A DNA stretch of 42,459 nucleotides from a virus: the IMG/VR virus record IMGVR_UViG_3300014879_000002, positions 1-42,459 of that record. The stretch is one strand, 5' to 3'. The first letter of the stretch is position 1; each line of letters opens with the position of its first letter. The notes beneath the pieces were generated by a model. That model had not been told where the DNA came from. It saw nothing but the letters and a program-made list of their open reading frames with translations, and did not search any database. Position numbers and translations under genes: made by a program. Positions 22,893 to 42,071 of this stretch are shown in pieces.

Positions 22893-22900
22893 TGAATTTT

Positions 22901-30781: not shown

Positions 30782-31037
30782 TCCCTGCGGCTTTTTTACA
30801 TGCTATATTCAATTCCCGTACTTTAAGTAGCTCACCATTCTTCAGTCTTTCAAGTGGCGAAAGCTGACGGTCAAGTAAAGTTTTATGTAATTCGTTCCAT
30901 TCAGCCTCACTTATTGATGGTAGTCTGTATTCGATCTCTTCGATCTGTTCAGGAGACAGGGAGGCTGTTCTCATTAAATATTGAGCCTCTTGTATCATTT
31001 CCTGTTCCATTATAAATATGTCTTTTGCTGTTATCAT
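30774..31037 (-). CDS. Hypothetical acidic early protein (87 aa)
   Basis: ATG ORF with overlaps at both ends, typical of the operon. Confidence 0.55.
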   Translation of the reverse strand: MITAKDIFIMEQEMIQEAQYLMRTASLSPEQIEEIEYRLPSISEAEWNELHKTLLDRQLSPLERLKNGELLKVRELNIACKKAAGNE

Positions 31038-31608: not shown

Positions 31609-32232
31609 TTAGAAAGGAAGGTCGTCTAAGGGTTCAGTAATTTCGTTTGCGTAAGACCTTTCAGCAGGGTTCTTTAATGCCTTATACTCATCAGACCCCT
31701 GCATTTTGACTTTAATGAAATCCGGAAGAGAATTGAACTTTACTTCATCCCATTCATCATAACTCAAAACAAATAATTTATTCATTGCTTTAGGAACCTG
31801 GACACCTTTTGGAATCGCTGTGATACCGGCAATATTGTCGTAAACCCTCAATCCATCTGATGATGGGCGGTGAATGATGTTTAACATACACGCAGCACCT
31901 AAGAGTTTCGTAATATCAAATGCTTTGGCTTCATCTTCGGTGAAGTCTTTGCCACGCCAGCTTTTTAAATCCTTCCGTAAATTGCTTTTCTCATTCATTG
32001 ATAAAGTGTACTCTTTGCTTATGGCTAAAGGCTGTTCACCTTTTGACGGGTCGAAAATCTTTAGTTCGGTGGGCAGCTCCCACCCTATTCTCACTTTATG
32101 TAACGTTTTTTGTTTACCCATAATAAACTCGGTTACTGTTCCGATTTCGATCATTTGATAACACCGGGCGATGTAATTCCCTGCTGGAATTGGGTCCCGT
32201 GTTGTCCCGGTTGATGTTGCTGTAATTGGCAT
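31609..32232 (-). CDS. ssb: Phage single-stranded DNA-binding protein (207 aa)
   Basis: The C-terminal acidic tip '...EPLDDLPF' is equivalent to the bacterial SSB 'DDDIPF' interaction tail. The N-terminal 'PIPAGNYIARCYQMIEIGT' is of the kind seen in DUF669-like phage SSBs. Confidence 0.6.
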   Translation of the reverse strand: MPITATSTGTTRDPIPAGNYIARCYQMIEIGTVTEFIMGKQKTLHKVRIGWELPTELKIFDPSKGEQPLAISKEYTLSMNEKSNLRKDLKSWRGKDFTEDEAKAFDITKLLGAACMLNIIHRPSSDGLRVYDNIAGITAIPKGVQVPKAMNKLFVLSYDEWDEVKFNSLPDFIKVKMQGSDEYKALKNPAERSYANEITEPLDDLPF

Positions 32233-32366
32233 ATAGTTAATTTTAATTCTTTATCGAGATATATATAAAGACAATCTTCCTTACATTCTGTACAAACCCC
32301 GCAGCCGTTTATTTCAGCGTATCGCTGTGACCAGGGAGTAGAACCGCAACAATCTGATACTAGCAT
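32151..32366 (-). CDS. Small Cys-rich hypothetical protein (71 aa)
   Basis: 'CCGSTPW...CGVCTECKEDC' is zinc-ribbon-like. It overlaps the SSB start by 82 nt in another frame, so the extent is uncertain. Confidence 0.3.
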   Translation of the reverse strand: MLVSDCCGSTPWSQRYAEINGCGVCTECKEDCLYIYLDKELKLTICQLQQHQPGQHGTQFQQGITSPGVIK

Positions 32367-32379
32367 AATTTTTAAAATT

Positions 32380-32403
32380 GGTCCCGATAATTAAACCGGG
32401 ACC
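32380..32403 (-). promoter_or_regulatory. Perfect 7-bp GC-rich stem-loop (GGTCCCG-N10-CGGGACC) 14 nt upstream of the ATG at 32366
   Basis: Read directly. On the minus strand it is followed by AATTTTAAAAATT. It could be a weak terminator or a 5'-UTR structure. Confidence 0.35.
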
Positions 32404-32570
32404 GTTTATCCACCAATCCTCTCCACCAAGAGCAAATTCTTAAAAAGTGGGTGAGAGTTTCCCGGCTCCCACCCTATACTTACAATCCAGAACTTTCTAA
32501 TTAAAGGGAGAAAGTAGAAACAATCTCCCGTCGATGCTTGCCTATGAAAAAAACCAATAAAGAACTTTTT

Positions 32571-32596
32571 AAAAGTCAGGGGTAGAAACCCCCGAC
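32571..32596 (-). terminator. Intrinsic terminator of the first leftward transcription unit
   Basis: The minus strand reads GTCGGGGG-TTTCTA-CCCCTGAC (8 bp including one G-U) followed by TTTTAAAAAG. It starts 65 nt downstream of the stop at 32661. Confidence 0.55.
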
Positions 32597-32660
32597 GCCT
32601 TAGTAAACCAACAAAAACAACTGTTTCAAAGAATACGTTTATGTTTGGTTTTTCTTAATC

Positions 32661-32831
32661 TCATTCTGAAATCTTAATTTCAGTTTCATCCAGACTCAAC
32701 AGCCGGTCCACTTCTGTATTGTAGTTGGGTTTAGTATCTTCAAACTTCAAAGGTGTAAGCAGCAGTCTCATAATACAAAAGGCTATAAGTAAGATGCTTA
32801 CCGCTAAAATGATTTTAAGAATTGTTTCCAT
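32661..32831 (-). CDS. Small membrane protein (56 aa; below the track cutoff)
   Basis: 'METILKIILAVSILLIAFCIMRLLLTPLKFEDTKPNYNTEVDRLLSLDETEIKISE' has one clear TM helix. Its ATG lies inside the end of the upstream small ORF. Confidence 0.45.
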   Translation of the reverse strand: METILKIILAVSILLIAFCIMRLLLTPLKFEDTKPNYNTEVDRLLSLDETEIKISE

Positions 32832-32976
32832 TGGGTTGGGTTTTTTCGTTTATATAATCGGTAATTCGGTTTAACTCTTCGATGCCGCAATTTTCAAGCT
32901 CTTCGTCCGGGGTGTCCCTTACATCAGGCAGAACATTGCCGTATTTTTCAAGTTGCCAGAGTTCGTAGTTTGTCAT
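32815..32976 (-). CDS. Small acidic hypothetical protein (53 aa; below the track cutoff), first leftward gene
   Basis: 'MTNYELWQLEKYGNVLPDVRDTPDEELENCGIEELNRITDYINEKTQPNGNNS'. Starts at the edge of the divergent control region. Confidence 0.4.
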   Translation of the reverse strand: MTNYELWQLEKYGNVLPDVRDTPDEELENCGIEELNRITDYINEKTQPNGNNS

Positions 32977-33026
32977 CGGGTGCTAAGGTAAAATTCTTTG
33001 TTTAAGCCAGCAAACATGGGCAAGGG

Positions 33027-33048
33027 TATTTTTGCAACACTGTTGCAA
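33027..33048 (+). promoter_or_regulatory. Candidate -7 box TATTTTTG overlapping an operator-like inverted repeat TTGCAAC-ACT-GTTGCAA
   Basis: Read directly in the 249-bp divergent intergenic region. TAnnTTTG is the Bacteroidota -7 consensus. Confidence 0.35.
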
Positions 33049-33096
33049 ATATGGAAGATCGAGTAAAAGTACTCAAAAATGGTAGAATTTTAATAT

Positions 33097-33104
33097 TACT
33101 TTTG
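33097..33104 (+). promoter_or_regulatory. Second candidate -7 box (TACTTTTG) for the rightward block
   Basis: Exact TAnnTTTG match ~120 nt upstream of the start at 33226. A 5-bp inverted repeat GAGTA-AAAG-TACTC lies at 33061-33074. Confidence 0.3.
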
Positions 33105-33225
33105 TAACAAGCTGAACAGCTCCGGTCTCGTAGGATTGCATCAGCAGCCGGGGCCGGATTTTTTAACACAGAGCCTTTCCAGGTTTATTATTTTTTTTTT
33201 ATTTAAAATAATACTAATTTAGGGT

Positions 33226-33777
33226 GTGACTGTGGCGCAGATAATTGAGCAGTTGTATCGATCCAAAGACTTAGACGAGTGTATCAGAAAAACAGTGCGT
33301 CTCGATTTACAGTCCGATTTCAAACACGAATTAATATTGATTTTATATGATAAGTCCCCTGAGTTAATCCAAAGACTGCACGAGGCCAAGCAGCTTACTT
33401 TTTACGTGGTAAGAATAATTTTAAACTTGGTCAATCAGTCCAGGAATATTTATCATAAGACTTATATAAACCCGGCGATTACTTACGACAATGACAAGTT
33501 AAAAGATAAGTACGAAATAGAAGAAAACTTTGAAGAACGATTAAGAAAGGAGAATAGGGAGGTTGCATTAATAAATGAGTTCAACAATTTAGATTCGACG
33601 TTCAATACTTTTTATTACAGAAGATTGATTCAGGAAGTAGCAAAGACGGGCGGGGTTCGGAAAGCATCAAGAGCAACGGGGATACCCCGATCAAGTATTT
33701 CAGATTCGATTAAGAAAGTAAGGGAGCATTTAAACAAGATTTATAACGATTCAGAAAATATTGAGGGCATATACTGA
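33226..33777 (+). CDS. Sigma-factor-like / HTH transcription regulator (183 aa, GTG start)
   Basis: The N-terminal region resembles sigma region 2 ('DFKHELILILYDK...LTFYVVRIILNLVNQ'). The C-terminal 'VAKTGGVRKASRATGIPRSSISDSIKKVREHL' resembles a region-4 HTH. First gene of the rightward block. Confidence 0.5.
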   Translation: MTVAQIIEQLYRSKDLDECIRKTVRLDLQSDFKHELILILYDKSPELIQRLHEAKQLTFYVVRIILNLVNQSRNIYHKTYINPAITYDNDKLKDKYEIEENFEERLRKENREVALINEFNNLDSTFNTFYYRRLIQEVAKTGGVRKASRATGIPRSSISDSIKKVREHLNKIYNDSENIEGIY

Positions 33778-34355: not shown

Positions 34356-35169
34356 GCGGTATAACGAAGAGGTGCTTATTACGCCCGAAATTGCTAAACA
34401 ATTTCTTGAAAATGGCAAAAGTAATAATAGGGCAATGCGGGTAAATAAAATAGATCAGTTTGCCAGAGACATGAGGGAAGGAAAATGGAAGCGGCACACG
34501 GGCGAAACTATGAAAATAGGTATAAGCGGTACATTATTAGACGCCCATCACCGATTGAGGGCTATTATTAAATCAGGCGTTTCCGTTTGGATGGAGGTCG
34601 CCTATAATATACCTGATGAAAATTTTGATGTTTTAGATACCGGATCATCCAGGTCAGCGGGAGATAATTTTAAGATACTTGAAATACCAAACGCTAATAT
34701 AACACCATCCATTATTCAGCAATATGTTGCATTAGTGAAAGGTGTTGTTCGTGGTAATGGAGGCAGTAACAAGGGTAAGGTTTTAACAAACTCAGACCTA
34801 ATAAAGACATATTATCAGAATGAGGACTATTGGCTGAATACCACTAAACAGGTATTGGTTTGGTATAGTTCATTTGGCAGGCTATTAACTCCTAGTGTTA
34901 TTGGCGGGTTCTTTGCCTACTTTGAAGGCTTCGATGAAGAAAAAGCTTTTAGCTTCTTTGAACAACTTTGCAAGCCGATTCAAGTTGATAACGATGTTAT
35001 ACTGAAGTTAAAGAATATGCTTCTAAATGACAGGACTGGAGTTAAGAAAATAACTCAATTGCATAAGTTCGGATTGATATTGAAATCGTGGAATTATTAC
35101 AGATCGGGTGCGGTATGTAAGATATTGAAATTCGATCCTGAAAAAGAAAGCTTACCGATAGCGAAATGA
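34234..35169 (+). CDS. ParB/Srx-fold N-terminal-domain protein (ParB-like nuclease family)
   Basis: 'ITPEIAKQFLENGKSNNRAMRVNKIDQFARDMREGKWKRHTGETMKIGISGTLLDAHHRLRAIIKSG' matches the 'NRpl...dM..G.W...G.L.DGQHRL.Ai' family pattern. The ATG at 34234 overlaps the upstream gene by 122 nt; a GTG at 34371 is an alternative start. Confidence 0.6.
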   Translation: MNVLKQTTTSNGRLKNSFVKLIASLPITDLKLNKESGEANKRYNEEVLITPEIAKQFLENGKSNNRAMRVNKIDQFARDMREGKWKRHTGETMKIGISGTLLDAHHRLRAIIKSGVSVWMEVAYNIPDENFDVLDTGSSRSAGDNFKILEIPNANITPSIIQQYVALVKGVVRGNGGSNKGKVLTNSDLIKTYYQNEDYWLNTTKQVLVWYSSFGRLLTPSVIGGFFAYFEGFDEEKAFSFFEQLCKPIQVDNDVILKLKNMLLNDRTGVKKITQLHKFGLILKSWNYYRSGAVCKILKFDPEKESLPIAK

Positions 35170-35387
35170 AAGAAATCATTTATTCTAGTTGTTTGGCGTG
35201 GACATGGGTTTATATTTTAGGCTTTATCAGGTTTAAGTATAAGCCCATTAATTGCGCTAAATGTATGTCAGCCTGGATTTGTTTGGCCTTGTGCGTAGGA
35301 AGGTTCCCGATTTGGGAGGTCCCGTTTTTAATCTGCATAGCTATGATCTGTACCATTATTCTAACTGCAATGATGAATAAACTATGA
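35166..35387 (+). CDS. Small polytopic membrane protein (73 aa)
   Basis: Two to three hydrophobic helices plus a 'KPINCAKCMSAW' motif. ATGA-type overlaps at both ends. Confidence 0.55.
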   Translation: MKEIIYSSCLAWTWVYILGFIRFKYKPINCAKCMSAWICLALCVGRFPIWEVPFLICIAMICTIILTAMMNKL

Positions 35388-36442
35388 AGATTCTGTGTGT
35401 GTACGATGGTTCCGGTCCCAAACTGCATCGTTGCTTACTTCCTTGCGCCGGGATGGAAAAGACTTACAAGGTAGAAATAAAGGTAGTAAATCATTTACCA
35501 AGTTATTCAGAAGATGACATTTTTAACGGCATTGATATTGTTCTTTTCAACAGGATGATAGCCGGGGTAAACAGGGAAAGGCTTTTGATGTGGCGTGAAA
35601 AGTATGGGTTCAAATTAGTGTGTGATTTAGACGATCACTGGGTATTAGATAGGGACCATTTGCTTTACGAAGGTTACAGACAGCACATGATTACCACAAT
35701 TATAGAATGGTACATCAAACACTCAGATTTGATTTTGGTCACTCACGAGCGATTGCATCGGGATGTAATTGAAATAAATAAGAACTGTTACATCTTGCCA
35801 AATGCAATTCCTAAGTTCGACCAGTTCTTAGTAAAGAAGATACCCGATGATTATGTAAGGTTATTCTGGGCGGGCGGGGTGACACATAGGAAAGATTTAG
35901 AGTTATTAAGACGACCACTAAAGCTAATCAAACGGGACGGGGTAAAGTTAATCATGGGTGGCTATGAGGATAATCCGGAATGGAAGGAGATGGCTAAGAT
36001 ATTTACAACAGATTCGACATACAACACGCAGGTGATACGGTCAGAGCCGCCAACAAGTTACTATTGCGTTTATTCCCTTTGTGACATTTCGCTTGTCCCG
36101 TTGGTTCAAAGCAAATTCAATGAGCATAAAAGCAATCTTAAAATACTCGAGGCGGCTAATATTGAAGCTCCTGTCGTGGTCAGTCGTGTACATCCCTATG
36201 TCGGTTTTCCTGATAGTATTGTGTCGTACGTTGATTCTCATAGGCCGTGGTATTCGCAAATTACGAAGCTTATTAAAGATCCAATCCTAAGAAAAGAGCA
36301 GGGCATCGAGTTAAGAAACTACTGTGACATTCACTATTCGTTCAATAAGATAAACCAAATGCGTTATGAATTACTACAGCATGAAACCGGACAACGTCGA
36401 GAAGTTAGAGAAGCACCGGCCAAAGCTGAACCTGTGGATTAA
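35384..36442 (+). CDS. GT-B fold glycosyltransferase (352 aa)
   Basis: The C-terminal half has the GT1/GT4-type signature ('VRLFWAGGVTHRKDLELL...', 'KSNLKILEAANIEAPVVVS'). Confidence 0.55.
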   Translation: MKILCVYDGSGPKLHRCLLPCAGMEKTYKVEIKVVNHLPSYSEDDIFNGIDIVLFNRMIAGVNRERLLMWREKYGFKLVCDLDDHWVLDRDHLLYEGYRQHMITTIIEWYIKHSDLILVTHERLHRDVIEINKNCYILPNAIPKFDQFLVKKIPDDYVRLFWAGGVTHRKDLELLRRPLKLIKRDGVKLIMGGYEDNPEWKEMAKIFTTDSTYNTQVIRSEPPTSYYCVYSLCDISLVPLVQSKFNEHKSNLKILEAANIEAPVVVSRVHPYVGFPDSIVSYVDSHRPWYSQITKLIKDPILRKEQGIELRNYCDIHYSFNKINQMRYELLQHETGQRREVREAPAKAEPVD

Positions 36443-36695
36443 TGACAAAACGTGTCACTTAGATTCAGGGGAGAAAGCTGAGATTCTAAACGTGATTAGA
36501 GAGGAGTTTAACTCAGGGTATCATGTGGATTTATGGTGTCATGCGTGTGTAGTAAGAATGTTGGAATATGCTTTTAATGAAATGGACAAACGAAAAATAG
36601 ATACAATAACCATACCTCTGGGGGCTAATGACGTAAAGATAACAGACCTGAACATAAGACCTGATACAAACTATACAATAAATACGAAAGACTAA
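36366..36695 (+). CDS. Hypothetical Cys/His-containing protein (109 aa)
   Basis: ATG ORF overlapping the previous gene by 77 nt. 'KTCHLDSG...DLWCHACVVRM'. Its stop overlaps the next start (TAATG). Confidence 0.4.
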   Translation: MNYYSMKPDNVEKLEKHRPKLNLWINDKTCHLDSGEKAEILNVIREEFNSGYHVDLWCHACVVRMLEYAFNEMDKRKIDTITIPLGANDVKITDLNIRPDTNYTINTKD

Positions 36696-37456
36696 TGGCA
36701 TTGATCGCAATGGCTGTATATGATACCGAAGAGAACAAACGAACGGAACTAACCGAGCGAACAATTAATTCTTTGTATGAAACTGTGGACTTTGACAAGC
36801 ATAGAATAATTGTTGTCGATAACGCAAGCTGTACAGCTACCAAGAATTTATTAGAAGCTACGTTTTGGCCAGATGAAATCATTACCCTTCCTGAGAATGT
36901 AGGCACAGCTAAAGCAATCAATCAGGCGTGGAAGTTAAGGCAACCCGGGGAAAATTGTGTAAAGATGGACAACGATGTAGAAATAGGTTTCGTGGGGTGG
37001 GTCGACGAAATGGAACGGGCGATAGAAAGAGATCCAACTATTGGGCAGGTAGGATTGAAAAGGAAAGACTGTTGGGAATATCCCACCCACGAAAACCCAG
37101 AGTTCAGGAGCGAGTTAATAATGCTAAACCACAAACCCGGCGAAGCGTGGATCGTAGTTGAAAGGTCAAAGCATATCATTGGAACGTGTGTAATGCACTC
37201 AGCAGCCCTATTAGACAAGGTGGGTTACTTGTATCAACCTGGATTATACGGCTACGACGATGTGCTAATGAGCTGGAGAAGTTCAATAGCTGGCTTTAAG
37301 AATGTATTCCTTTCTTATATTCCGATAGATCACATCGACCCCGGTGATACACCTTACCAGGGGTGGAAGGAAAGGCACTCAGGGGAGTACACAAGATTAG
37401 TGAGCGATATTGTGGACGGGTATTTAAAAGGTAAATCAATTTACTATGAGGCTTAA
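36695..37456 (+). CDS. Family-2-type (GT-A fold) glycosyltransferase (253 aa)
   Basis: 'RIIVVDNASCTATKNLL', 'LPENVGTAKAINQAWK' and the DxD-like 'VKMDNDV'. Confidence 0.7.
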   Translation: MALIAMAVYDTEENKRTELTERTINSLYETVDFDKHRIIVVDNASCTATKNLLEATFWPDEIITLPENVGTAKAINQAWKLRQPGENCVKMDNDVEIGFVGWVDEMERAIERDPTIGQVGLKRKDCWEYPTHENPEFRSELIMLNHKPGEAWIVVERSKHIIGTCVMHSAALLDKVGYLYQPGLYGYDDVLMSWRSSIAGFKNVFLSYIPIDHIDPGDTPYQGWKERHSGEYTRLVSDIVDGYLKGKSIYYEA

Positions 37457-37592
37457 GGCATTTATTAATATTGGGCTAATAGCAATGATAGTGAACATAA
37501 TTATAGCTTGTTTGAATCCGCAGATGTGGCACGAGATATTAGGATGGGTTGCGGCACTTATTCTTTTATGGGCAATTAAAGATATTAAATGA
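37446..37592 (+). CDS. Small membrane protein (48 aa; below the track cutoff)
   Basis: 'MRLKAFINIGLIAMIVNIIIACLNPQMWHEILGWVAALILLWAIKDIK' has two hydrophobic helices. ATGA overlap with the next gene. Confidence 0.4.
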   Translation: MRLKAFINIGLIAMIVNIIIACLNPQMWHEILGWVAALILLWAIKDIK

Positions 37593-38419
37593 ACTACTAC
37601 GTAACAGGAGCTAATGGATTTATAGGGCAGAATGTAATCAGGTATCTGAGAGATAAAGGGCTTAAAGCTACTGGGGTTCCCAGACACTTCGAGGAGTCGA
37701 TCTTTGACATTGAATTTGAGGAACCGTTTACGTTCATCCACTTATCAGCTTACGGGAATCACTATAACCAAAAGGATACAAGCCAGATCATCAAGGCTAA
37801 CATCCAGGATTTAAAACTTCTTTTGGCTTACTTCAAGAACTTTAAACAACCAGAAAAGTTTATCAATGTTTCCACCTCTTCCATCACCCTGACTTGCCAG
37901 ACGATGTATTCACTCTCTAAGCACTTTGGGGAGTTAATGGTGGACAGTATGAATAACAAAAGGTTTATAAATGTCAGACCATACTCAGTTTACGGTCCAC
38001 TTGAAGCGGGTCACAGATTTATACCTACGGTAATTCGCGCATTGGAAAACAGAGAAACAATAGAGCTGGACCCGTATTCTAAACACGATTGGATTTATGT
38101 GGATGATTTTATTGAGGCAATGTTACAAGGAATCCCCAACGTGGGGACAGGGATTTCAACGTCTAATTTGGAAGTAGTTAGAATACTTGAACATCTTTCA
38201 TTTAGGGAATTAAAATACACCCCTGGTAAGATGAGAGATTACGACACTCAGAACTGGGTATGTCCAGTTGGGGTGAAACACATACCTATTTATGAAGGCT
38301 TAAAACGTACTTATGAATCCGTTACAAAACAGAATAAAAGCAATCAGCAAGAAGTTAAACCTGTCTCACCTGGGGTCAAACCTAACTGCAGTGGGAATAA
38401 TAGACAGGGTTTATCATAA
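37589..38419 (+). CDS. NAD(P)-dependent sugar epimerase/dehydratase (SDR family, 276 aa)
   Basis: Rossmann motif 'YVTGANGFIGQNV' at the N-terminus and a catalytic YxxxK at 'YSLSK'. The 3' ~107 nt overlap the next gene in another frame. Confidence 0.7.
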   Translation: MNYYVTGANGFIGQNVIRYLRDKGLKATGVPRHFEESIFDIEFEEPFTFIHLSAYGNHYNQKDTSQIIKANIQDLKLLLAYFKNFKQPEKFINVSTSSITLTCQTMYSLSKHFGELMVDSMNNKRFINVRPYSVYGPLEAGHRFIPTVIRALENRETIELDPYSKHDWIYVDDFIEAMLQGIPNVGTGISTSNLEVVRILEHLSFRELKYTPGKMRDYDTQNWVCPVGVKHIPIYEGLKRTYESVTKQNKSNQQEVKPVSPGVKPNCSGNNRQGLS

Positions 38420-38891
38420 GAGAAAGCCGCATGAACCTTTTGTTCTTTCGTGTGGTCATGCTGGTTTAGCTCTATACGTTGTACTTGAAAAGTATTTAGG
38501 AGTGAACGCTGAAGAGTTATATAAAAAACACGGGACTCACCCGAACAGGGATATTGAAAATGGTATTTATTGTTCAACTGGTTCTTTAGGTTGGGGTATT
38601 ACGATAGCCGCAGGGATGGCATTTGCTGACCGGGATAAGAATGTCTGGTGTTTGATTTCAGACGGTGAAGCGTTTGAAGGTTCAATCTGGGAGGTGGCTA
38701 ATGTGATGCACAGGTACAAGTTAGACAACCTTAAAGTGTGTTTGAATTGGAACGGTTGGAGTGCTTATCATTCAGTAAGCAGGAATTTCGTGGAGAGGGT
38801 TAAAGCTATCTTCCCTTCTATTTCGGTATGCGAAACGAGTGTAAAAGATTACGGGTTCAAAGGTTTGGAAGCACATTATGTAAAACTATGA
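38313..38891 (+). CDS. Transketolase-like ThDP enzyme, N-terminal (PP-domain) subunit, short form (192 aa)
   Basis: 'HLGSNLTAVGIIDRVY...FVLSCGHAGLALYVVLEKYLG' and 'GSLGWGITIAAGMAFADRDKNVWCLISDGEAFEGSIWEVAN...LNWNG' give a ThDP-binding GDG-x27-N-like motif, here SDG. Confidence 0.7.
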   Translation: MNPLQNRIKAISKKLNLSHLGSNLTAVGIIDRVYHKRKPHEPFVLSCGHAGLALYVVLEKYLGVNAEELYKKHGTHPNRDIENGIYCSTGSLGWGITIAAGMAFADRDKNVWCLISDGEAFEGSIWEVANVMHRYKLDNLKVCLNWNGWSAYHSVSRNFVERVKAIFPSISVCETSVKDYGFKGLEAHYVKL

Positions 38892-39343
38892 GACAACAAT
38901 TCTTTAGAGACTTACACAAGTTAATGTTTGACAACTGGAATGTTTATTTCATTACCGGGGATTTAGGGTTTGGGCTCGCTGACAAGATCAGAGATGACTT
39001 CCCTGATCGGTTTATCAATGTGGGTGCAGCAGAAGTAACGATGCTAGGTGTAGGAATCGGCCTGGCATTAGAAGGCAAAGTTCCAATATGTTACTCAATC
39101 ACTCCGTTCCTTTTGTTTCGCCCTTATGAGGGGATAAGAAATTATTTACATCATGAACAGATCCCGGTGATTCTAGTGGGGAGTGGAAGGGGAAAAGACT
39201 ACGAGCACGACGGCTTCAGTCATTGGGCTGAGGATGATGCAGAAGCACTCAGACATTTGAACATAGAAATATATTATGACTATGAAAATTTAAATGATAT
39301 TGTAGCTAAAAATAAACCAGTTTACATAAATTTATCAAGATGA
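38888..39343 (+). CDS. Transketolase-like ThDP enzyme, Pyr-domain subunit, short form (151 aa from ATG 38888)
   Basis: 'FITGDLGFGLADKIRDDFPDRFINVGAAEVTMLGVGIGLALEGKVPICYSITPFLLFRPYEGIRN' and 'GSGRGKDYEHDGFSHWAEDDAEALRHL' match the transketolase pyrimidine-binding domain. No Transketolase_C region follows. ATGA overlap with the previous gene. Confidence 0.7.
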   Translation: MRQQFFRDLHKLMFDNWNVYFITGDLGFGLADKIRDDFPDRFINVGAAEVTMLGVGIGLALEGKVPICYSITPFLLFRPYEGIRNYLHHEQIPVILVGSGRGKDYEHDGFSHWAEDDAEALRHLNIEIYYDYENLNDIVAKNKPVYINLSR

Positions 39344-39525
39344 AATTAAGGTTAGAAATAGAAATCGAATGTGGAGACACACTTATAGACACGTCCAATA
39401 TAGTTGAAGTAAATTGGTTATTAAAGGACATTCTAATACCATCCGACTTACGTGTCTATAGCAATGAGATAGGGGGTGAGTTTGGCGATGTTATATCTGT
39501 CGCTAATATAAAAATATTACAGTAA
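39340..39525 (+). CDS. Hypothetical protein (61 aa)
   Basis: ATGA overlap upstream and TAATG overlap downstream. Confidence 0.45.
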   Translation: MKLRLEIEIECGDTLIDTSNIVEVNWLLKDILIPSDLRVYSNEIGGEFGDVISVANIKILQ

Positions 39526-40166
39526 TGAAACATCTCAATGATACAAACGGCGCAAGCAAGCTAACATTAAAGATAGCTGAAAAATGCTTATCAGAGTTTG
39601 AAGGCACGTTAATTGGTGTTGAGTTTGGTGTGGCTTACGGTGGAGGAATAGAGGCTATCGGGAAGTTGTGGGGAGTAAGGGGCAAGATATACGGCTTTGA
39701 CACATTTGAAGGACACCCCAAACAAATAGGGGAGATTTGCCAGGATAGTAAAAGGGCGGGCGGGGTTCATTCGTTCGCTGCTACTTGTATGGATAGTTGG
39801 TATCAAAGAGAAGATTACGGAACCGAAGCTATTAAGTACGATTACATCAGGAAGAACCTCGACGATCAGGGCGTAATAAATGCTATTCTTGTTAAGGGAT
39901 TGGTCACGGATAAGACAGATGTTTCGTTCCTTAATGCTATTCACTACGCTTTTATTGATCTGGATTTCCCGCTTTCAAACAGGCAAGCATTTGAATTGAT
40001 TAAAGACAAGATTGTAAAGGGCGGGTACTTGATGTTACACGACTGTGTGCCTAAAGGTCATATATCAGGCTGCTATGAAGTGTACCAGGATATTTTAAAG
40101 ACAGGAATGTTTGAGTTGATGGGAGAATTTAACCCAGAGTATTTAGTAATAATGATAAGAAAATGA
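39525..40166 (+). CDS. Class I SAM-dependent methyltransferase, TylF (macrocin O-methyltransferase)-like (213 aa)
   Basis: 'LIGVEFGVAYGGG' (SAM motif I), 'IYGFDTFEGHP' (TylF-type DxFeG) and 'YAFIDLDFPLS...GGYLMLHD'. Confidence 0.65.
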   Translation: MKHLNDTNGASKLTLKIAEKCLSEFEGTLIGVEFGVAYGGGIEAIGKLWGVRGKIYGFDTFEGHPKQIGEICQDSKRAGGVHSFAATCMDSWYQREDYGTEAIKYDYIRKNLDDQGVINAILVKGLVTDKTDVSFLNAIHYAFIDLDFPLSNRQAFELIKDKIVKGGYLMLHDCVPKGHISGCYEVYQDILKTGMFELMGEFNPEYLVIMIRK

Positions 40167-40336
40167 ATGATAAACTATTAATTAAAAAAGAGGTCGCTAA
40201 GTTACTTAGAGTCACGGAACGATCCATAGACGAGTATAGAAGGCGGGGCGTATTACCATCCTATAAGCTAGGAGGCAAAATACTATTCGATGAAAAAGAA
40301 GTTAGAGAAGCCATTAAAATGCACAGGAGAAAATGA
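40163..40336 (+). CDS. Small MerR/excisionase-type HTH protein (57 aa; below the track cutoff)
   Basis: 'LIKKEVAKLLRVTERSIDEYRRRGVLPSYKLGGKILFDEKEVREAI' matches the HTH_17 pattern. ATGA overlaps on both sides. Confidence 0.6.
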   Translation: MNDKLLIKKEVAKLLRVTERSIDEYRRRGVLPSYKLGGKILFDEKEVREAIKMHRRK

Positions 40337-40491
40337 AACTAGTGGCTTACATAGAAGAAGAGAAAAGATACATAGAAATTTGGACTTTACAAGTTGGTAA
40401 GGATTGTTATTTCGTTCAGGAGTTTACAATCGAATACGAAAAGGCACCCATATACACAGTCAGACTTATATCATTTACAACCAGAAAATGA
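40333..40491 (+). CDS. Small hypothetical protein (52 aa; below the track cutoff)
   Basis: 'MKLVAYIEEEKRYIEIWTLQVGKDCYFVQEFTIEYEKAPIYTVRLISFTTRK'. ATGA overlaps on both sides. Confidence 0.4.
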   Translation: MKLVAYIEEEKRYIEIWTLQVGKDCYFVQEFTIEYEKAPIYTVRLISFTTRK

Positions 40492-40754
40492 AACTACTAA
40501 TTATCTTTTTGCTGACTTCAGCAGTATGTTATGGGCAATCAGATTCAACAGCAATAACGCAGGAGGTTTTCTTTTCCCCGTTAATTAATAAATACGGTTT
40601 AGTAACAAACAATGGGAGTAGTTATGATAATGTGGTACATGGTACTTTAGAGTTTGTTGAACAGCAAAAGGAAATTGAATATCAAAAAGCATGGTTAAGA
40701 AGAAAACCTATTAGGATTGTAACTGTAAAATGTAAATCACCCTTTAAGAAATGA
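40488..40754 (+). CDS. Small exported protein (88 aa from ATG 40488)
   Basis: 'MKLLIIFLLTSAVCYG|QSDS' is a signal peptide with Gln at +1. The track ORF 40404..40754 starts at an upstream non-ATG codon in the same frame. Confidence 0.55.
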   Translation: MKLLIIFLLTSAVCYGQSDSTAITQEVFFSPLINKYGLVTNNGSSYDNVVHGTLEFVEQQKEIEYQKAWLRRKPIRIVTVKCKSPFKK

Positions 40755-41398
40755 AGCTAATCAACGGTAATACAATGGAGTTAAACTTGCTCTCAGATCA
40801 GGCAAGGAATCATTTTGATAACCCCAGAAACTACACAGACTTTATCATAGCAGAATGGGATGAGTTACCTTATTCCGGATACCTCAAACCTAATTCAATT
40901 ATACTGGACATAGGGGCTAACATAGGATTATTTGGATTGCACGTGAAACCATTTGCCAAAAGACTAATTTGCGTTGAGCCTACACCTGAACACATGAAGA
41001 TCCAAAAAGAACTCTTAGATGCAGAACATGAACAAGCTGCGTTAAATTCATACACAGGCAAAGCAAGGTTCAGAAACGAGCCGGTGAATACCACAATGAA
41101 CACTTTACGGGAAAGCTCAGACGCTTACGAAGTGGATTGTATTACACTTAAAGACTTGTGCATCAAATACGAATTAGACAAAGTTGATTTCTGCAAAGTG
41201 GATATAGAGGGAAGCGAATGGCAAGCATTGACAGTAGAAAGACTCAAAGAAGTCAAAGGGATTATTAAATCCTTTTTCGTTGAGCTGCACCCCAGGACAG
41301 GGGTATCACAGTTTGAGATGGGTAAAAGATTCGAAGAGGCCGGCTATAAAGTAAAAGTAATTGATTACAACGGCTCAATTTATTGTTATGAAACTTAG
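40751..41398 (+). CDS. FkbM-family SAM-dependent methyltransferase (215 aa)
   Basis: 'ILDIGANIGLFGLHV', 'ICVEPTPEH', 'FCKVDIEGSEWQAL' and 'FFVELHP' match FkbM family motifs. Confidence 0.7.
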   Translation: MKLINGNTMELNLLSDQARNHFDNPRNYTDFIIAEWDELPYSGYLKPNSIILDIGANIGLFGLHVKPFAKRLICVEPTPEHMKIQKELLDAEHEQAALNSYTGKARFRNEPVNTTMNTLRESSDAYEVDCITLKDLCIKYELDKVDFCKVDIEGSEWQALTVERLKEVKGIIKSFFVELHPRTGVSQFEMGKRFEEAGYKVKVIDYNGSIYCYET

Positions 41399-42071
41399 AG
41401 TATTAACTACATCCCACACCACAGATAACCAGGGCTGGCGCAAGCTGGAAGAGAGTTTAAAAAAATTCAACTATGAATACACCCACATCCTACACCCGTT
41501 CTCATTCGGTCATCAGTTGCCTGTTATCCGTGATTGGTGTCTTAATAATCGCGGTAGCTGTACTCATATTTTATATACTGACTGCTTCGATACTATTGCT
41601 TATTCGGGTCCCGAAGAGGTTGAAGGCAAGTTCCCGGAATGTAAAATGCTTATCTCAGCAGAAAAGGCGTGCTATCCCCATCCCTCCCGAGCTACAGACT
41701 ATCCGGAAACAAGTACACCCTGGAAGTATGTCAATGGAGGAGGCTGGATGGTTGAACTAGAATACTTCCTTCACCTGTGCCAAAAAGAAAGATTAGACCA
41801 TAACTCCCACGACCAGGTATGGCTAATGGATTCATTCTTAAGGAATCAGGACGAAATAAATATTGATAACAACTGTGAAATATTTCAAACGATAGCGTTT
41901 AGTCATAAGGAAGAATGGGTAAAGGGCGGACAAACAACAAGGTATGGTTCACAGGATGATAGGGGGAGTTATTTAGAAGTAACTATACCAAGGTTCCAAA
42001 ACATTGGCACACAATCGTTTCCGGTATTTTTTCACGGCAATGGTCACACAGATATGCAATGGCTATATTAA
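41388..42071 (+). CDS. Glycosyltransferase-like protein (227 aa from ATG 41388), PLOD/LH3-GT-like
   Basis: 'ILYTDCFDTIA', 'LISAEKACYPHP' and 'KYVNGGGWMVELEYF' resemble the 'fsAEkncWP ... yLNSGgfiG' pattern of lysyl-hydroxylase-type GT domains. This rests on memory of the pattern only. Confidence 0.4.
   Translation: MKLRVLTTSHTTDNQGWRKLEESLKKFNYEYTHILHPFSFGHQLPVIRDWCLNNRGSCTHILYTDCFDTIAYSGPEEVEGKFPECKMLISAEKACYPHPSRATDYPETSTPWKYVNGGGWMVELEYFLHLCQKERLDHNSHDQVWLMDSFLRNQDEINIDNNCEIFQTIAFSHKEEWVKGGQTTRYGSQDDRGSYLEVTIPRFQNIGTQSFPVFFHGNGHTDMQWLY

What the first reader, a model, noticed from the sequence alone, without database searches (positions are those of the whole stretch)
35384..42071. Phage-borne 6.7-kb sugar-modification / glycosylation island with no obvious acceptor
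Thirteen co-oriented genes, many linked by ATGA/TAATG stop-start overlaps, sit between the ParB-like gene and terS. They encode a GT-B glycosyltransferase (35384), a GT2-type glycosyltransferase (36695), a PLOD-like glycosyltransferase (41388), an SDR sugar epimerase/dehydratase (37589), a split transketolase-like ThDP enzyme (38313 and 38888), a TylF-like methyltransferase (39525) and an FkbM methyltransferase (40751). Small membrane, HTH and exported proteins are interspersed. Together this could tailor a nucleotide-sugar (keto-sugar formation, C-C branching or chain extension, O-methylation) and transfer up to three sugars. The parts expected for the known roles of phage glycosyltransferases are missing. 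There is no Wzx/Wzy/Gtr-type flippase or priming transferase, as O-antigen seroconversion would need. There is no dCMP/dUMP hydroxymethylase, as T4-type DNA glycosylation would need. There is no sugar nucleotidyltransferase. The enzymes look cytoplasmic, so the acceptor could be a virion protein, phage DNA carrying a non-classical handle, or a host cytoplasmic target. Self-encoded glycan machinery with methyltransferases is established for chloroviruses, and virion glycosylation for some mycobacteriophages. I do not know of a described equivalent with a ThDP enzyme in a Bacteroidota phage.
Basis: partly seen in the sequence, partly recalled or inferred. Interest (0 to 1): 0.8.

Follow-up and report, generated by a model that had tools for sequence, protein, structure and literature searches.

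The report
Phage glycan island with mini-transketolase
An uncultured 42-kb phage carries a tightly packed 6.9-kb operon of eight sugar enzymes, including a miniature two-piece transketolase found in hundreds of uncultured phages but no cultured one; it most likely builds an unusual sugar coat for the virus particle.

Summary
Positions 35166-42071 hold 15 co-oriented, overlapping ORFs. Eight are sugar enzymes: GT-B/GT4-like, GT2, GalE-like SDR, split ThDP enzyme, TylF-like methyltransferase (weak), FkbM methyltransferase and PLOD-type GT-A. The window is a complete 42,336-bp circular phage genome. It has no integrase, DNA polymerase, thymidylate-synthase homologue, TET/JBP dioxygenase, flippase or priming transferase.

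New findings:
- The ThDP enzyme is a miniature split transketolase (192 + 151 aa). It belongs to a tight clade with more than 1,600 protein clusters and 498 IMG/VR contigs, and no cultured phage carries it.
- It nearly always sits beside a mini-SDR or a DegT aminotransferase, and often next to an FkbM methyltransferase.
- Cellular relatives lie among large membrane glycosyltransferases. Phage copies do not.
- In several phage lineages the cassette lies between portal and capsid genes.
- In this phage's own lineage, a constant GT-B anchors a hypervariable island just upstream of terL.

Best reading (confidence 0.45): a virus-encoded pathway oxidises a host UDP-sugar, adds a two-carbon unit, methylates it and glycosylates virion proteins. 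Rivals are DNA hypermodification (no hydroxylase found) and host-envelope modification. It is a new variant of a known kind. Interest 0.68.

The parts
35166..35387 (+). 73-aa membrane ORF, translationally coupled on both sides (ParB-like gene upstream, GT-B downstream)
   Evidence: ATGA overlaps on both sides. One predicted TM segment. A 70-aa homologue sits directly upstream of the GT-B in L004. No Pfam hit.
35384..36442 (+). GT-B glycosyltransferase (GT4-like, retaining type). It is the constant 'anchor' gene of the island and the probable initiating transferase.
   Evidence: Pfam Glyco_trans_1_4 1.9e-6. PHROG 7162 7.5e-58. AF2 pLDDT 93. Best PDB folds are GlgM, MshA, BshA, PglA, SenB, Gtf3 and TarM. 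It is the first gene of every island variant in related phages.
36366..36695 (+). 109-aa ORF of unknown function
   Evidence: No Pfam, PHROG or NCBIfam hit. Found only in the same phage's contigs.
36695..37456 (+). GT2 (GT-A fold) glycosyltransferase, soluble
   Evidence: PF00535 4e-8. Conserved next to the GT-B in L004, L170, L180 and L181. No TM segment.
37446..37592 (+). 48-aa hydrophobic ORF (two hydrophobic stretches by eye; one scored)
   Evidence: Not conserved in L004.
37589..38419 (+). Miniature extended-SDR (family length about 240-255 aa). GalE-like, predicted to oxidise C4 of a UDP-sugar.
   Evidence: PF01370 2e-21. Invariant GxxGFxG, S95/S97 and Y107xxxK111, with no dehydratase Asp-Glu pair. 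AF2 pLDDT 90. Best PDB folds are UDP-Glc/GlcNAc/GlcA 4-epimerases, Pcryo_0617 and TunA. An SDR is the gene directly upstream of TktN in 32 loci.
38313..38891 (+). Mini-transketolase, ThDP/PP-domain subunit (192 aa)
   Evidence: Transketolase_N 4.8e-10. Best PDB match is the split TK 6yak, 2e-14. H19/H49/H76/D117/N147 align to E. coli TktA H26/H66/H100/D155/N185. 1,623 homologues, most of them 192 aa. 498 IMG/VR stretches.
38888..39343 (+). Mini-transketolase, pyrimidine-binding subunit (151 aa), with no Transketolase_C domain
   Evidence: Transket_pyr 2.7e-12. PDB 6yaj 1.7e-13. The cofactor Glu and the D/H of the 'EDG..H' motif are kept. The His at E. coli 461 is not kept, and the chain ends before R520. 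Co-occurs with TktN in 85 of 87 loci.
39340..39525 (+). 61-aa ORF of unknown function
   Evidence: No family hit. Present only in contigs of the same phage.
39525..40166 (+). Class-I SAM methyltransferase, TylF/Methyltransf_24-like (probable sugar O-methyltransferase). Weakest assignment in the island.
   Evidence: Pfam hits below cut-off. Family motifs GxExGxAYGG, DTFEGHP, DLDxP and HD. No PDB sequence hit, even with a profile. Conserved in L004 and in four genome-bin loci next to the mini-TK.
40163..40336 (+). 57-aa HTH_17 (MerR/excisionase-like) DNA-binding protein
   Evidence: PF12728 1.8e-10. Not conserved in related islands.
40333..40491 (+). 52-aa ORF of unknown function
   Evidence: No hit.
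40488..40754 (+). 88-aa ORF with an N-terminal signal-peptide-like segment (MKLLIIFLLTSAVCYGQ)
   Evidence: Sequence. ATG at 40488 overlaps the upstream stop. No Pfam hit.
40751..41398 (+). FkbM-family methyltransferase
   Evidence: PF05050 1.5e-11. TIGR01444 2.3e-19. An FkbM gene lies two genes after TktN in 30 loci.
41388..42071 (+). PLOD-type GT-A glycosyltransferase, probably a chain-extending (sugar-to-sugar) transferase
   Evidence: PF25342 2.2e-24. Best PDB matches are mimivirus R699 (8e-13) and the human LH3 GT domain. R699 is a Gal-Hyl glucosyltransferase (PMC9546862). Conserved in L004, L005, L027 and L029.

Best explanation
The island is a late-operon, virus-encoded glycosylation pathway that works in the host cytoplasm.

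Inferred steps:
1. The mini-SDR, a GalE-like enzyme, oxidises C4 of a host UDP-hexose or UDP-HexNAc to a keto-sugar. The phage encodes no nucleotidyltransferase, so it must draw on host pools.
2. The miniature TktN/TktC ThDP enzyme adds a two-carbon unit (hydroxyacetyl or acetyl) to that carbonyl. The product is a C-branched or chain-extended sugar.
3. The TylF-like and FkbM methyltransferases methylate it.
4. The GT4-like GT-B places the first sugar on the acceptor. The GT2 and PLOD-type GT-A enzymes extend a short glycan.

The acceptor I commit to is one or more virion structural proteins (capsid, decoration or tail). The result is a variable glycan coat, analogous to mycobacteriophage, chlorovirus and mimivirus particle glycans.

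Shown here: the enzyme families, intact cofactor and catalytic motifs, operon structure, conservation, the phage-specific clade, and the lack of membrane machinery. Inferred: substrate, reaction order, product and acceptor.
For: The enzymes are real and intact.

The SDR folds like C4-oxidising UDP-sugar epimerases and lacks the dehydratase acid pair.

An SDR (32 loci) or a DegT aminotransferase (42 loci) is the gene directly before TktN. TktC follows TktN in 85 of 87 loci, and an FkbM gene follows in 30.

Residues that bind the substrate phosphate in canonical TK are replaced or lie outside the mini-enzyme. This argues against a pentose-phosphate role.

Cellular relatives of the SDR+mini-TK module sit among polytopic membrane proteins: 36 of 317 ORFs, in 13 of 17 loci, next to an ArnC-like GT2 and a DUF2142 protein. 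In 87 viral loci only 5 of 1,817 ORFs have 4 or more TM segments. The phage GTs have no counterpart in the cellular loci. This points to a cytoplasmic acceptor.

In lineage A phages the order is portal, MuF, then [GT2, DegT, formyltransferase, GNAT, DegT, TktN, TktC], then scaffold, MCP, then [GT11, FkbM, MT_24, GT10, GT2]. The capsid genes are embedded in the glycan cluster.

At least 29 of 84 viral loci have a recognised head or packaging gene within 6.1 kb of TktN, median 1.6 kb.

In this phage's own lineage, a constant GT-B is followed by interchangeable tailoring sets at one locus just upstream of terL. That is the pattern expected of an exposed, diversifying glycan.

No base-hydroxylating enzyme is present. 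No Pfam hit turned up anywhere in the complete genome. There were 0 ThyA-like hits among 5,587 ORFs of 92 viral loci plus the window.

The window has no integrase, and the island is contiguous with the terS/terL operon.
Against: No glycan has been observed, so the acceptor rests on gene position alone.

Accessory genes often collect next to packaging genes for reasons unrelated to function. DNA-modification clusters also co-occur with terminases (19%) and ParB (27%) (PMC13229309).

In other lineages the cassette lies in a metabolic island with QueD/QueE-like, NAD synthase and UDP-Glc dehydrogenase genes, not among head genes.

The candidate major capsid protein (9625-10572) has no Ser/Thr-rich C-terminal tail of the kind glycosylated in mycobacteriophages.

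The GT-B fold matches are generic GT4 enzymes. Their acceptors include lipids, small molecules and polymers as well as protein-linked glycans.

A temperate relative (L171) carries the GT-B next to its integrase.

Transfer by a transketolase to a ketone acceptor has never been demonstrated in vitro.
Confidence: 0.45

Rival explanations
1. Post-replicative DNA hypermodification. The GTs attach the tailored sugar or sugars to a hydroxylated base in phage DNA shortly before packaging, which protects the DNA from restriction and other DNA-targeting defences.
For: Known phage DNA-glycan clusters combine GT-A/GT-B enzymes with a partner sugar epimerase. They co-occur with ParB (27%), terminases (19%), O-methyltransferases and epimerases (bioRxiv 10.1101/2023.12.21.572611; PMC13229309).

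Here a ParB-like gene is translationally coupled to the island, and terS/terL follow it.

A Bcep1-gp12-type DNA methyltransferase is encoded at 29793-30422.

Phage SP-15 GTs and proteins annotated as 'DNA alpha-GT' appear among the weaker BFVD fold matches.

The authors of PMC13229309 note thousands of contigs retrieved by their 5mYOX profiles that lack a TET/JBP annotation.
Against: Every known route needs a hydroxyl handle made by a 5mYOX/TET-JBP dioxygenase or a thymidylate-synthase homologue. Neither is detectable in this complete 42.3-kb genome. PF12851 finds 83-95% of phage 5mYOX contigs.

Neither enzyme appears in the Pfam-annotated related loci. ThyA-like hits were 0 in 92 loci.

The phage has no DNA polymerase or nucleotide-metabolism genes.

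ParB is not conserved next to the GT-B in relatives.

T4 beta-GT is not among the top 50 PDB fold matches of the GT-B.

In lineage A the sugar genes flank the scaffold and capsid genes.
Confidence: 0.15
2. Modification of a host envelope glycan (LPS/O-antigen, capsule, the general O-glycan of Bacteroidota, or a wall polymer). The soluble phage GTs would act on lipid-linked intermediates at the cytoplasmic face and rely on host flippases and ligases. The benefit would be superinfection exclusion, or preventing progeny from adsorbing to debris.
For: Cellular homologues of the SDR+mini-TK(+MT) module are clearly in envelope-glycan loci, with an ArnC-like GT2 and GT-C-like membrane proteins. SAR11 hypervariable-region transketolase fragments are reported among GT, MT and epimerase genes (PMC6811365).

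GT4 relatives such as PglA, WaaG and TarM act on lipid- or polymer-linked acceptors.

A temperate relative has the GT-B close to its integrase.

The island contains small membrane and signal-peptide ORFs.
Against: No priming phosphoglycosyl transferase, flippase, polymerase, ligase or GT-C occurs in the window or in 87 viral loci (and the Pfam-annotated loci).

The window phage has no integrase or recognisable lysogeny module.

The island is fused to the packaging operon. In other lineages it lies between portal and capsid genes, so it would be expressed late, when remodelling the envelope brings little benefit.

The small membrane ORFs are not conserved.
Confidence: 0.2
3. Central-carbon auxiliary metabolic genes. 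The 'transketolase' and 'UDP-glucose 4-epimerase' would boost pentose-phosphate flux for nucleotide synthesis, as viral tkt genes are usually interpreted in virome surveys.
For: This is the usual reading of viral tkt and epimerase genes (PMC4053976; PMC8319345). The ThDP and catalytic His/Glu residues are conserved.
Against: The enzyme is 192 + 151 aa and lacks the C-terminal domain and the H261 region. The residues that bind the substrate phosphate are not conserved.

It is never seen with tal, zwf or gnd in the loci examined. It is always seen with SDR or aminotransferase, methyltransferases and GTs.
Confidence: 0.03

Closest known systems
Mycobacteriophage virion O-glycosylation (Freeman et al. 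2023, Cell Host Microbe; cited in PMC12619734; the paper itself is not held)
   Same: Phage-encoded cytoplasmic glycosyltransferases, and in some phages methyltransferases, encoded near structural genes. They decorate capsid and tail-tube subunits.
   Different: As far as I know (own knowledge, paper not readable here), those systems use host nucleotide-sugars directly. They have no SDR, ThDP enzyme or aminotransferase. The hosts are Actinobacteria. Here no glycan has been observed, and the candidate capsid protein lacks a Ser/Thr-rich C-terminus.
Giant-virus autonomous glycosylation (chlorovirus PBCV-1 capsid N-glycans; mimivirus fibril glycans; R699 collagen glucosyltransferase, PMC9546862 and PMC12279948)
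   Same: Virus-encoded nucleotide-sugar tailoring (SDR, aminotransferase, acetyltransferase and methyltransferase types) plus several soluble GTs, acting without host membrane glycosylation machinery. The PLOD-type GT is most similar to mimivirus R699. A chlorovirus GT appears among the GT-B fold matches.
   Different: Those are eukaryotic viruses with genomes of 300 kb or more. To my knowledge no ThDP enzyme is described in their glycan clusters. Here everything is compressed into 6.9 kb of a 42-kb phage.
Phage post-replicative DNA glycan clusters (5mYOX/TET + GT + epimerase; bioRxiv 10.1101/2023.12.21.572611; PMC13229309) and the 5hoC-arabinosylation clusters of RB69/DLP3 (PMC13326640)
   Same: GT-A/GT-B enzymes with a partner sugar epimerase. 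Neighbourhood includes ParB, O-methyltransferases and terminase. Glycan diversity between related phages.
   Different: The defining base-hydroxylating enzyme (5mYOX or ThyA homologue) is absent here and in the related loci examined.
Split-gene transketolases of miharamycin/amipurimycin-type Streptomyces clusters (PMC12247030, section 2.3)
   Same: A two-gene transketolase next to an oxidoreductase in a sugar-tailoring cluster. [quoted passage not shown]
   Different: Those are actinomycete secondary-metabolite enzymes, described only as split-gene TKs; their subunit sizes were not checked here, and their activity is itself unproven. The phage enzyme is about half the usual split-TK size (192 + 151 aa) and lacks domain III.
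Cellular mini-TK envelope-glycan modules (CPR/Patescibacteria, Omnitrophota, Planctomycetes and proteobacterial MAGs; L098-L114)
   Same: The same SDR, mini-TktN, mini-TktC core, often with FkbM or class-I methyltransferases and DegT. 40-52% identity to the phage TktN.
   Different: These are embedded among an ArnC-like GT2 and GT-C-like polytopic membrane proteins. The subunits are slightly longer (about 212 + 165 aa). All are uncharacterised.

Membership tests
Canonical transketolase (pentose-phosphate pathway; 'tkt' AMG) | ThDP-binding GDG...N motif and catalytic His/Glu residues | tested here: met
   SDG(117)...NWN(147). H19/H49/H76 align to E. coli H26/H66/H100. The cofactor Glu is kept in TktC.
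Canonical transketolase (pentose-phosphate pathway; 'tkt' AMG) | Three-domain architecture (about 620-680 aa, or split about 280 + 310 aa) including the Transketolase_C domain | tested here: not met
   192 + 151 aa. There is no Transketolase_C hit. The TktN chain ends before the region that holds E. coli H261, judged from its length and the alignment, which reaches only E. coli residue 188. The mini length is constant across the family.
Canonical transketolase (pentose-phosphate pathway; 'tkt' AMG) | Residues binding the substrate phosphate (E. coli R358, S385, H461, R520) | tested here: not met
   Alignment to human TK and to 6yaj: the His position is Gly/Arg, the Ser position is Gly, and the two Arg positions lie outside the chain. 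The alignment is at low identity, so reliability is moderate.
Canonical transketolase (pentose-phosphate pathway; 'tkt' AMG) | Genomic association with other central-carbon genes | tested here: not met
   Neighbours are SDR, DegT, methyltransferases and GTs in all loci examined.
Sugar-branching split transketolase (miharamycin/amipurimycin type) | Two-gene TK adjacent to an oxidoreductase inside a sugar-tailoring cluster | tested here: met
   SDR, TktN and TktC overlap one another. The arrangement is conserved.
Sugar-branching split transketolase (miharamycin/amipurimycin type) | Transfer of a hydroxyacetyl unit to a keto-sugar | not testable with these tools
   This needs enzyme assays. It is unproven even for the reference systems.
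Phage virion glycosylation system | Phage-encoded soluble glycosyltransferases | tested here: met
   Three GTs, none with a predicted TM segment.
Phage virion glycosylation system | Encoded within or beside the structural or packaging module and co-oriented with it | tested here: met
   The island abuts terS/terL. In related lineages it lies between portal and capsid genes.
Phage virion glycosylation system | Glycan demonstrably attached to capsid or tail proteins | not testable with these tools
   This requires virions. In silico, the candidate MCP lacks a Ser/Thr-rich tail, while three other presumed structural ORFs are 22-25% Ser/Thr.
Phage DNA glycan hypermodification cluster | Enzyme creating a hydroxylated base (5mYOX/TET-JBP or thymidylate-synthase homologue) | tested here: not met
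   No PF12851, 2OG-oxygenase or PF00303 hit in any window ORF of 100 aa or more. jackhmmer with E. coli ThyA gave 0 hits in 92 viral loci plus the window. No 5mYOX-specific profile was available, so a very divergent one cannot be excluded.
Phage DNA glycan hypermodification cluster | GT with partner epimerase; ParB and terminase in the neighbourhood | tested here: met
   However, ParB adjacency is not conserved in relatives.
O-antigen / seroconversion modules (Gtr, Wzx/Wzy-dependent) | GtrA/Wzx flippase, GtrB-type or priming transferase, GT-C/Wzy/ligase | tested here: not met
   No such Pfam hits were found. No ORF in the window has 4 or more TM segments, and only 5 of 1,817 ORFs in viral loci do.
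O-antigen / seroconversion modules (Gtr, Wzx/Wzy-dependent) | Carried by a temperate phage, typically near int/att | tested here: not met
   No integrase in the complete genome. One relative (L171) does have an integrase beside a minimal GT-B island.
TylF/NovP-type sugar O-methyltransferase (ORF 39525-40166) | Significant match to the family model, or a solved relative | tested here: inconclusive
   Pfam TylF 1.2e-3 and Methyltransf_24 3.8e-4, both below cut-off. A profile search of the PDB found nothing. The motif layout is compatible.

The most novel reading that the evidence does not exclude
The phage-specific miniature transketolase, together with its mini-SDR partner, is a sugar-branching or chain-extending enzyme. 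It makes a previously undescribed C2-modified, methylated sugar that is displayed on phage particles. It marks a widespread, entirely uncultured 'phage glycocalyx' system: at least 498 viral contigs across several unrelated head and packaging types. Its genes have been read as pentose-phosphate AMGs in virome surveys. A still more radical variant is that the same cassette glycosylates DNA through a handle made by an unrecognised enzyme.
Probability: 0.3. Interest if true: 0.85.

Novelty: new variant of a known kind. Interest (0 to 1): 0.68.

Why it matters
Three consequences follow if the reading is right.

1. It would extend virus-encoded particle glycosylation, which my literature searches found described for mycobacteriophages and giant viruses only, to a broad set of environmental phages. 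It would also show that small phages can carry a full sugar-tailoring pathway, not just transferases.

2. The mini-transketolase would be the first ThDP-dependent sugar-modifying enzyme assigned to a virus. At 343 aa in two chains, it would be a compact model for the still-unproven ketone-accepting transketolase reaction, which biocatalysis researchers want for making tertiary alcohols.

3. It changes how 'viral transketolase' and 'viral UDP-glucose epimerase' genes should be read in virome AMG surveys. At least for this clade they would be glycan genes, not carbon-flux genes.

The hypervariable island anchored by the GT-B also gives a testable handle on what selects for glycan diversity in phages: defence evasion, immune or grazer recognition, or particle stability.

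Tried and rejected
- Nucleotide searches of the island and of 25 kb of the genome against 50,697 GenBank phage records found nothing.
- Single-protein scans of IMG/VR with TktN and with the PLOD GT found nothing. Only the TktN alignment worked.
- PDB sequence searches gave no usable hit for the GT2, the GT-B or the 213-aa methyltransferase, even with a family profile.
- I tested whether the GT2 plus the 48-aa two-helix ORF could be a split GtrB/ArnC-type polyprenol-phosphate transferase. The 48-aa ORF is not conserved in L004, and the GT2 has no BLAST similarity to the ArnC-like GT2 of the cellular loci. Rejected.
- I considered that the ParB-like gene marks a ParB-dependent thymine dioxygenase pathway (PMC13229309). 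No dioxygenase was found, ParB is not conserved next to the GT-B in relatives, and its cultured-phage homologues are unannotated. Kept only as a rival.
- The PLOD-type GT suggested collagen-like acceptors. No window ORF has a run of four or more G-X-Y repeats of collagen type, and there is no 2OG oxygenase.
- The fusion protein P0460 (TktN plus a C-terminal methyltransferase-like domain) looked like a Rosetta-stone link to the 213-aa methyltransferase. hhalign gave no significant match.
- The sigma-70 promoter and terminator scan was at chance level.
- The fold matches of the GT-B (PDB and BFVD) are generic and do not identify the acceptor.
- The Freeman 2023 paper and the Cell Reports version of Pyle et al. 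are not held. The bioRxiv version of Pyle et al. was used.

Full report
**What is there.** The window is a complete, circularly assembled phage genome. Its first 123 nt are repeated at the end, which leaves 42,336 unique bp. PHROGs identify terL (214-1455), a head protease (8406-9623), a virion protein (9625-10572) and a portal (14974-16992). There is no nucleotide similarity to any of 50,697 GenBank phage records. From 33226 onward a single + strand gene string runs into terS/terL. From the ParB-like ORF (34234) to the end of the last glycosyltransferase (42071) there is no intergenic base. Of 15 junctions, 10 are ATGA overlaps, 2 are TAATG, and 3 are longer overlaps. A 123-nt gap separates the island from a 123-aa DUF5681 protein, the positional terS, which crosses the circular junction and overlaps terL.

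**Check of the observation.**
- GT-B (Glyco_trans_1_4; PHROG 7162, 7.5e-58)
- GT2
- NAD-dependent epimerase/dehydratase SDR (2e-21)
- Transketolase_N and Transket_pyr on two adjacent ORFs
- FkbM methyltransferase
- PLOD-type GT (2.2e-24)
- HTH_17

The TylF-like call is the weakest. Both Pfam hits fall below the gathering cut-off, and no PDB relative was found even with a family profile. An alignment of nine family members does show a class-I SAM-binding motif and a TylF-like DTFEGHP / DxD / HD layout.

The listed absences are real. I scanned every window ORF of 100 aa or more, and several smaller ones, against Pfam. None matched a nucleotidyltransferase, flippase, priming transferase, thymidylate-synthase homologue, TET/JBP or other 2OG oxygenase, DNA polymerase or integrase. 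Within the island, only the 73-aa and 48-aa ORFs have a predicted membrane helix.

**The ThDP enzyme is the key to the wider picture.** The N subunit is 192 aa and the C subunit 151 aa. That is roughly half the size of known split transketolases, and the C-terminal domain is missing.
- TktN aligns to E. coli TktA residues 7-188. The catalytic and cofactor residues are conserved: H26/H66/H100/D155/N185 correspond to H19/H49/H76/D117/N147. These residues are invariant in a 30-sequence alignment.
- TktC keeps the cofactor-activating Glu and the Asp/His of the 'EDG..H' motif. The positions that bind the substrate phosphate in canonical enzymes are replaced or fall outside the chain.
- A search of 5.8 billion protein clusters returned 1,623 homologues. 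Most of the 120 listed are 192 aa long (190-211), and all share 58-74% identity or more with the query.
- A profile search of 1.84 billion 50%-identity representatives found 163 clusters at E<=1e-30, most of them 190-235 aa.
- IMG/VR holds 498 confirmed stretches on contigs from 5 to 320 kb.
- No record in the GenBank phage collection has a copy above 38% identity.
- In 185,579 species genomes the best matches are 52% or lower and come only from MAGs and SAGs.

This is a large, tightly conserved, phage-associated clade with no cultured member.

**What travels with it.** I called and clustered ORFs in 87 loci.
- TktC follows TktN in 85 loci.
- The gene directly upstream is an SDR in 32 loci and a DegT/DnrJ/EryC1 aminotransferase in 42.
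- An FkbM methyltransferase lies two genes downstream in 30 loci.
- Further SDRs of the 4,6-dehydratase type, GNAT and N-formyl transferases, and GT2/GT10/GT11-type transferases are frequent.

The eight enzymes of the window recur together in L004 (same order, ending at terL) and, rearranged, in L005, L027 and L029. The small non-enzymatic ORFs are not conserved.

**The SDR.** The family is itself miniaturised, at about 240-255 aa. It has invariant GxxGFxG, S95/S97 and Y107xxxK111, and it lacks the Asp-Glu pair of the 4,6-dehydratases. A confident model (pLDDT 90) is closest to UDP-glucose, UDP-GlcNAc and UDP-GlcA 4-epimerases, the Pcryo_0617 oxidoreductase/decarboxylase and TunA. To my knowledge (not checked here), all of these work through C4 oxidation of a UDP-sugar.

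[quoted passage not shown] That proposal is still unproven in vitro (PMC12247030).

**Cellular versus viral context.** Slightly longer mini-TKs (about 212 + 165 aa, 40-52% identity), with the same SDR partner, occur on large contigs of CPR, Omnitrophota, Planctomycetes and proteobacterial MAGs. In L111 the block is FkbM, SDR, DegT, SDR, class-I MT, TktN, TktC, a 310-aa GT2, then a DUF2142 membrane protein. Across 17 such loci, 36 of 317 ORFs have four or more predicted membrane helices. In the 87 viral loci the figure is 5 of 1,817. The phage GT-B, GT2 and PLOD GT have no BLAST counterpart in the cellular loci. The tailoring core is therefore shared, but the phages have swapped the membrane-bound delivery machinery for soluble transferases. 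This is the strongest in-silico argument for a cytoplasmic acceptor.

**Where the cassette sits.**
- Lineage A (L173, L175-177, and L008/L015/L019-L026 by clustering). The order is portal, Mu-F-like head protein, then [GT2, DegT, (N-formyltransferase), GNAT, DegT, TktN, TktC], then scaffold/protease, a 162-aa ORF, an HK97-type major capsid protein and two small ORFs, then [GT11-like, FkbM, Methyltransf_24, GT10-like, GT2...]. The capsid genes are embedded in the glycan cluster.
- A second lineage. The cassette follows portal and major head protein.
- A third lineage. The cassette lies between terL/portal and a Phage_cap_E capsid gene.
- At least 29 of 84 viral loci have a recognised head or packaging gene within 6.1 kb of TktN, median 1.6 kb. 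This is a lower bound, because only the clusters I annotated were counted. Of genes within 5 kb, 91% are co-oriented with TktN.
- Large and jumbo phages. The cassette sits instead in a metabolic island with PTPS/QueD, QueE-like, NAD synthase, a phosphoribosyltransferase and UDP-glucose dehydrogenase genes.

**This phage's own lineage.** GT-B homologues (45-88% identity) are all metagenomic. Six relatives share the window's structural gene order (terL of about 400 aa, then ORFs of about 210, 210, 396 and 690 aa). Each carries an island just upstream of terL that begins with the GT-B, but the content differs:
- GT2 + two Methyltransf_24 + an unknown 375-aa protein (L170, L180, L181)
- DUF8361 + HNH + FkbM (L179)
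- hexapeptide acetyltransferase + a GT7C-like GT (L172)
- a single 279-aa protein, in a temperate member with an integrase (L171)

. The window and L004 carry the SDR/TK/MT/PLOD version. The GT-B is thus a constant anchor, probably the initiating transferase, and the rest is a swappable tailoring set. This pattern resembles O-antigen or capsule serotype loci and implies diversifying selection on an exposed product.

The GT-B model (pLDDT 93) matches retaining GT4 enzymes: GlgM, MshA, BshA, PglA, SenB, Gtf3, TarM and a chlorovirus GT. T4 beta-glucosyltransferase is not in the top 50. BFVD matches are uncultured phage and giant-virus GTs. These matches confirm the fold but do not identify the acceptor. 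The PLOD-type GT is closest to mimivirus R699 and the LH3 GT domain. R699 and LH3 are collagen (galactosylhydroxylysyl) glucosyltransferases; R699 adds glucose to galactosyl-hydroxylysine (PMC9546862, PMC12279948). This suggests a chain-extending role here.

**The DNA alternative.** Recent work shows that phages glycosylate DNA post-replicatively with diverse glycans. The clusters comprise a 5-methylpyrimidine dioxygenase (TET/JBP type), sometimes a C5-methyltransferase, GT-A/GT-B enzymes and a partner sugar epimerase. ParB (27%), terminases (19%), O-methyltransferases and epimerases are frequent neighbours (bioRxiv 10.1101/2023.12.21.572611; PMC13229309). A second route starts from 5-hydroxycytosine made by a thymidylate-synthase homologue (PMC13326640).

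The window resembles such neighbourhoods. It has a ParB-like gene coupled to the island, an epimerase-like SDR, methyltransferases, terS/terL, and a Bcep1-gp12-type DNA methyltransferase 5 kb away. But the defining hydroxylase is missing from this complete genome. It is also missing from all Pfam-annotated related loci. A jackhmmer search with E. coli ThyA found nothing in 5,587 ORFs from 92 viral loci plus the window. PF12851 is reported to detect 83-95% of contigs retrieved with phage-5mYOX profiles. ParB is not conserved next to the GT-B in relatives. I therefore keep DNA modification as a rival at about 0.15.

**The host-envelope alternative.** Points in favour:
- The cellular homologues are envelope-glycan modules.
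- Some GT4 relatives act on lipid-linked acceptors.
- One temperate relative has the GT-B near its integrase.

Points against:
- There is no priming transferase, flippase, polymerase, ligase or GT-C in any viral locus.
- The window has no lysogeny module.
- The island is fused to the packaging and head operon.

I put this rival at about 0.2.

**The AMG alternative.** Virome surveys usually read viral tkt and epimerase genes as central-carbon AMGs (PMC4053976, PMC8319345). For this clade, the architecture, the active site and the gene context all contradict that reading.

**Mechanism proposed.** Shown here: enzyme families, motifs, operon structure, conservation and context. Inferred: everything about substrates, product and acceptor.
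1. The host supplies a UDP-sugar.
2. The mini-SDR makes the 4-keto intermediate.
3. The mini-TK adds a C2 unit.
4. Two methyltransferases methylate the sugar.
5. The GT-B initiates on virion proteins in the cytoplasm, and the GT2 and PLOD GT extend the glycan.

Confidence in the full statement, including the acceptor, is 0.45. I would put about 0.85 on the narrower claim that this is a nucleotide-sugar tailoring and transfer operon rather than carbon metabolism.

**Host.** The only cultured relatives of the portal are Nonlabens (Flavobacteriaceae) phages, at 27% identity. TerL is 32% or less identical to anything cultured. The Bacteroidota -7 box TAnnTTTG is depleted genome-wide (27 observed, 52 expected). 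It does occur three times on the + strand in the 1-kb gap upstream of the 33226 operon, and never on the + strand inside that operon. A Bacteroidota host is plausible but not shown.

**Novelty and score.** Phage-encoded glycosylation of particles, DNA and host surfaces is known. A nucleotide-sugar tailoring pathway with a ThDP enzyme in a phage is not described in the literature I could search. I found no description of the mini-transketolase clade either. I rate the finding a new variant of a known kind, with interest 0.68.

Noticed in passing
window 17800-17865: A near-perfect tandem array, 5.5 copies of the 12-bp unit TATAAACGTTAG (98% match), which contains the palindrome AACGTT. It fills the short gap between two presumed structural ORFs (17376-17804 and 17865-19127). 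It could be a protein-binding array or a regulatory or packaging signal.
   Followed up: partly
window 17865-19127: A 420-aa presumed structural protein with 25% Ser/Thr. It has about six degenerate 20-aa repeats of the form GxF(N/V)(L/F)TGSxVxLT, several containing N-x-T sequons. Together with 11608-12729 (22% S/T) and 17376-17804 (23% S/T), it is a candidate glycan acceptor.
   Followed up: no
window 32232-33226 and genome-wide: The Bacteroidota promoter -7 motif TAnnTTTG is depleted genome-wide (27 matches, 52 +/- 7 expected). Three + strand copies (32640, 33027, 33097) cluster in the 1-kb non-coding gap between the divergent early (- strand) genes and the 33226-onward (+ strand) operon.
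   Followed up: partly
window 29793-30422 (- strand): A 209-aa protein with no Pfam hit, 52-70% identical to Bcep1 gp12-type 'DNA (cytosine) methyltransferases'. Homologues occur in 887 GenBank phage records from very diverse hosts.
   Followed up: partly
window 31034-31591 (- strand): A pentapeptide-repeat protein (PF00805, 5e-15) among the early genes. It may be a DNA mimic or anti-defence protein.
   Followed up: no
window 38313-38419: The SDR carries a C-terminal tail of about 30 aa that overlaps the start of TktN by 107 nt in another frame. Only the closest relatives (P0241, P0242) share the tail. Other family members end at about residue 245-255.
   Followed up: partly
proteins P0390, P0411, P0436, P0410, P0460 (50%-identity library): Mini-TktN occurs fused to three kinds of partner, judged by reading the sequences; no family search was run on these fusions. 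HNH-type endonuclease-like domains sit at the N-terminus in three cases. A class-I-methyltransferase-like domain sits at the N-terminus in P0410. A C-terminal domain that looks like a Methyltransf_24-type methyltransferase by motif is fused in P0460. hhalign of P0460 against the window's MT213 family was not significant.
   Followed up: partly
L036-L048, L072 (e.g. L040:3776-17526): In large and jumbo phages the SDR/DegT/mini-TK/FkbM cassette lies in an auxiliary-gene island. The island also holds PTPS/QueD, a QueE-like radical-SAM enzyme, a phosphoribosyltransferase, NAD synthase, UDP-glucose dehydrogenase and a cytidylyltransferase-like protein.
   Followed up: partly
window 12713-14836, 20668-22665, 22796-24382: Three large late proteins begin with hydrophobic, signal-peptide-like N-termini. 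One example is MKKIFLLLFLLIGFLGYGQ. The protein at 12713-14836 has a right-handed beta-helix tailspike-like domain (PF13229). Such N-termini are unusual for virion proteins.
   Followed up: no
L168 (Escherichia phage PaulScherrer) and 141 GenBank phage records: Distant homologues (about 29% identity) of the island's GT-B occur in phi92-like and Justusliebigvirus, Klebsiella and Campylobacter phages. There they form four-gene GT clusters next to the DNA primase/helicase and polymerase genes, annotated 'putative disaccharide synthase'. The annotations give no characterised function for them.
   Followed up: partly
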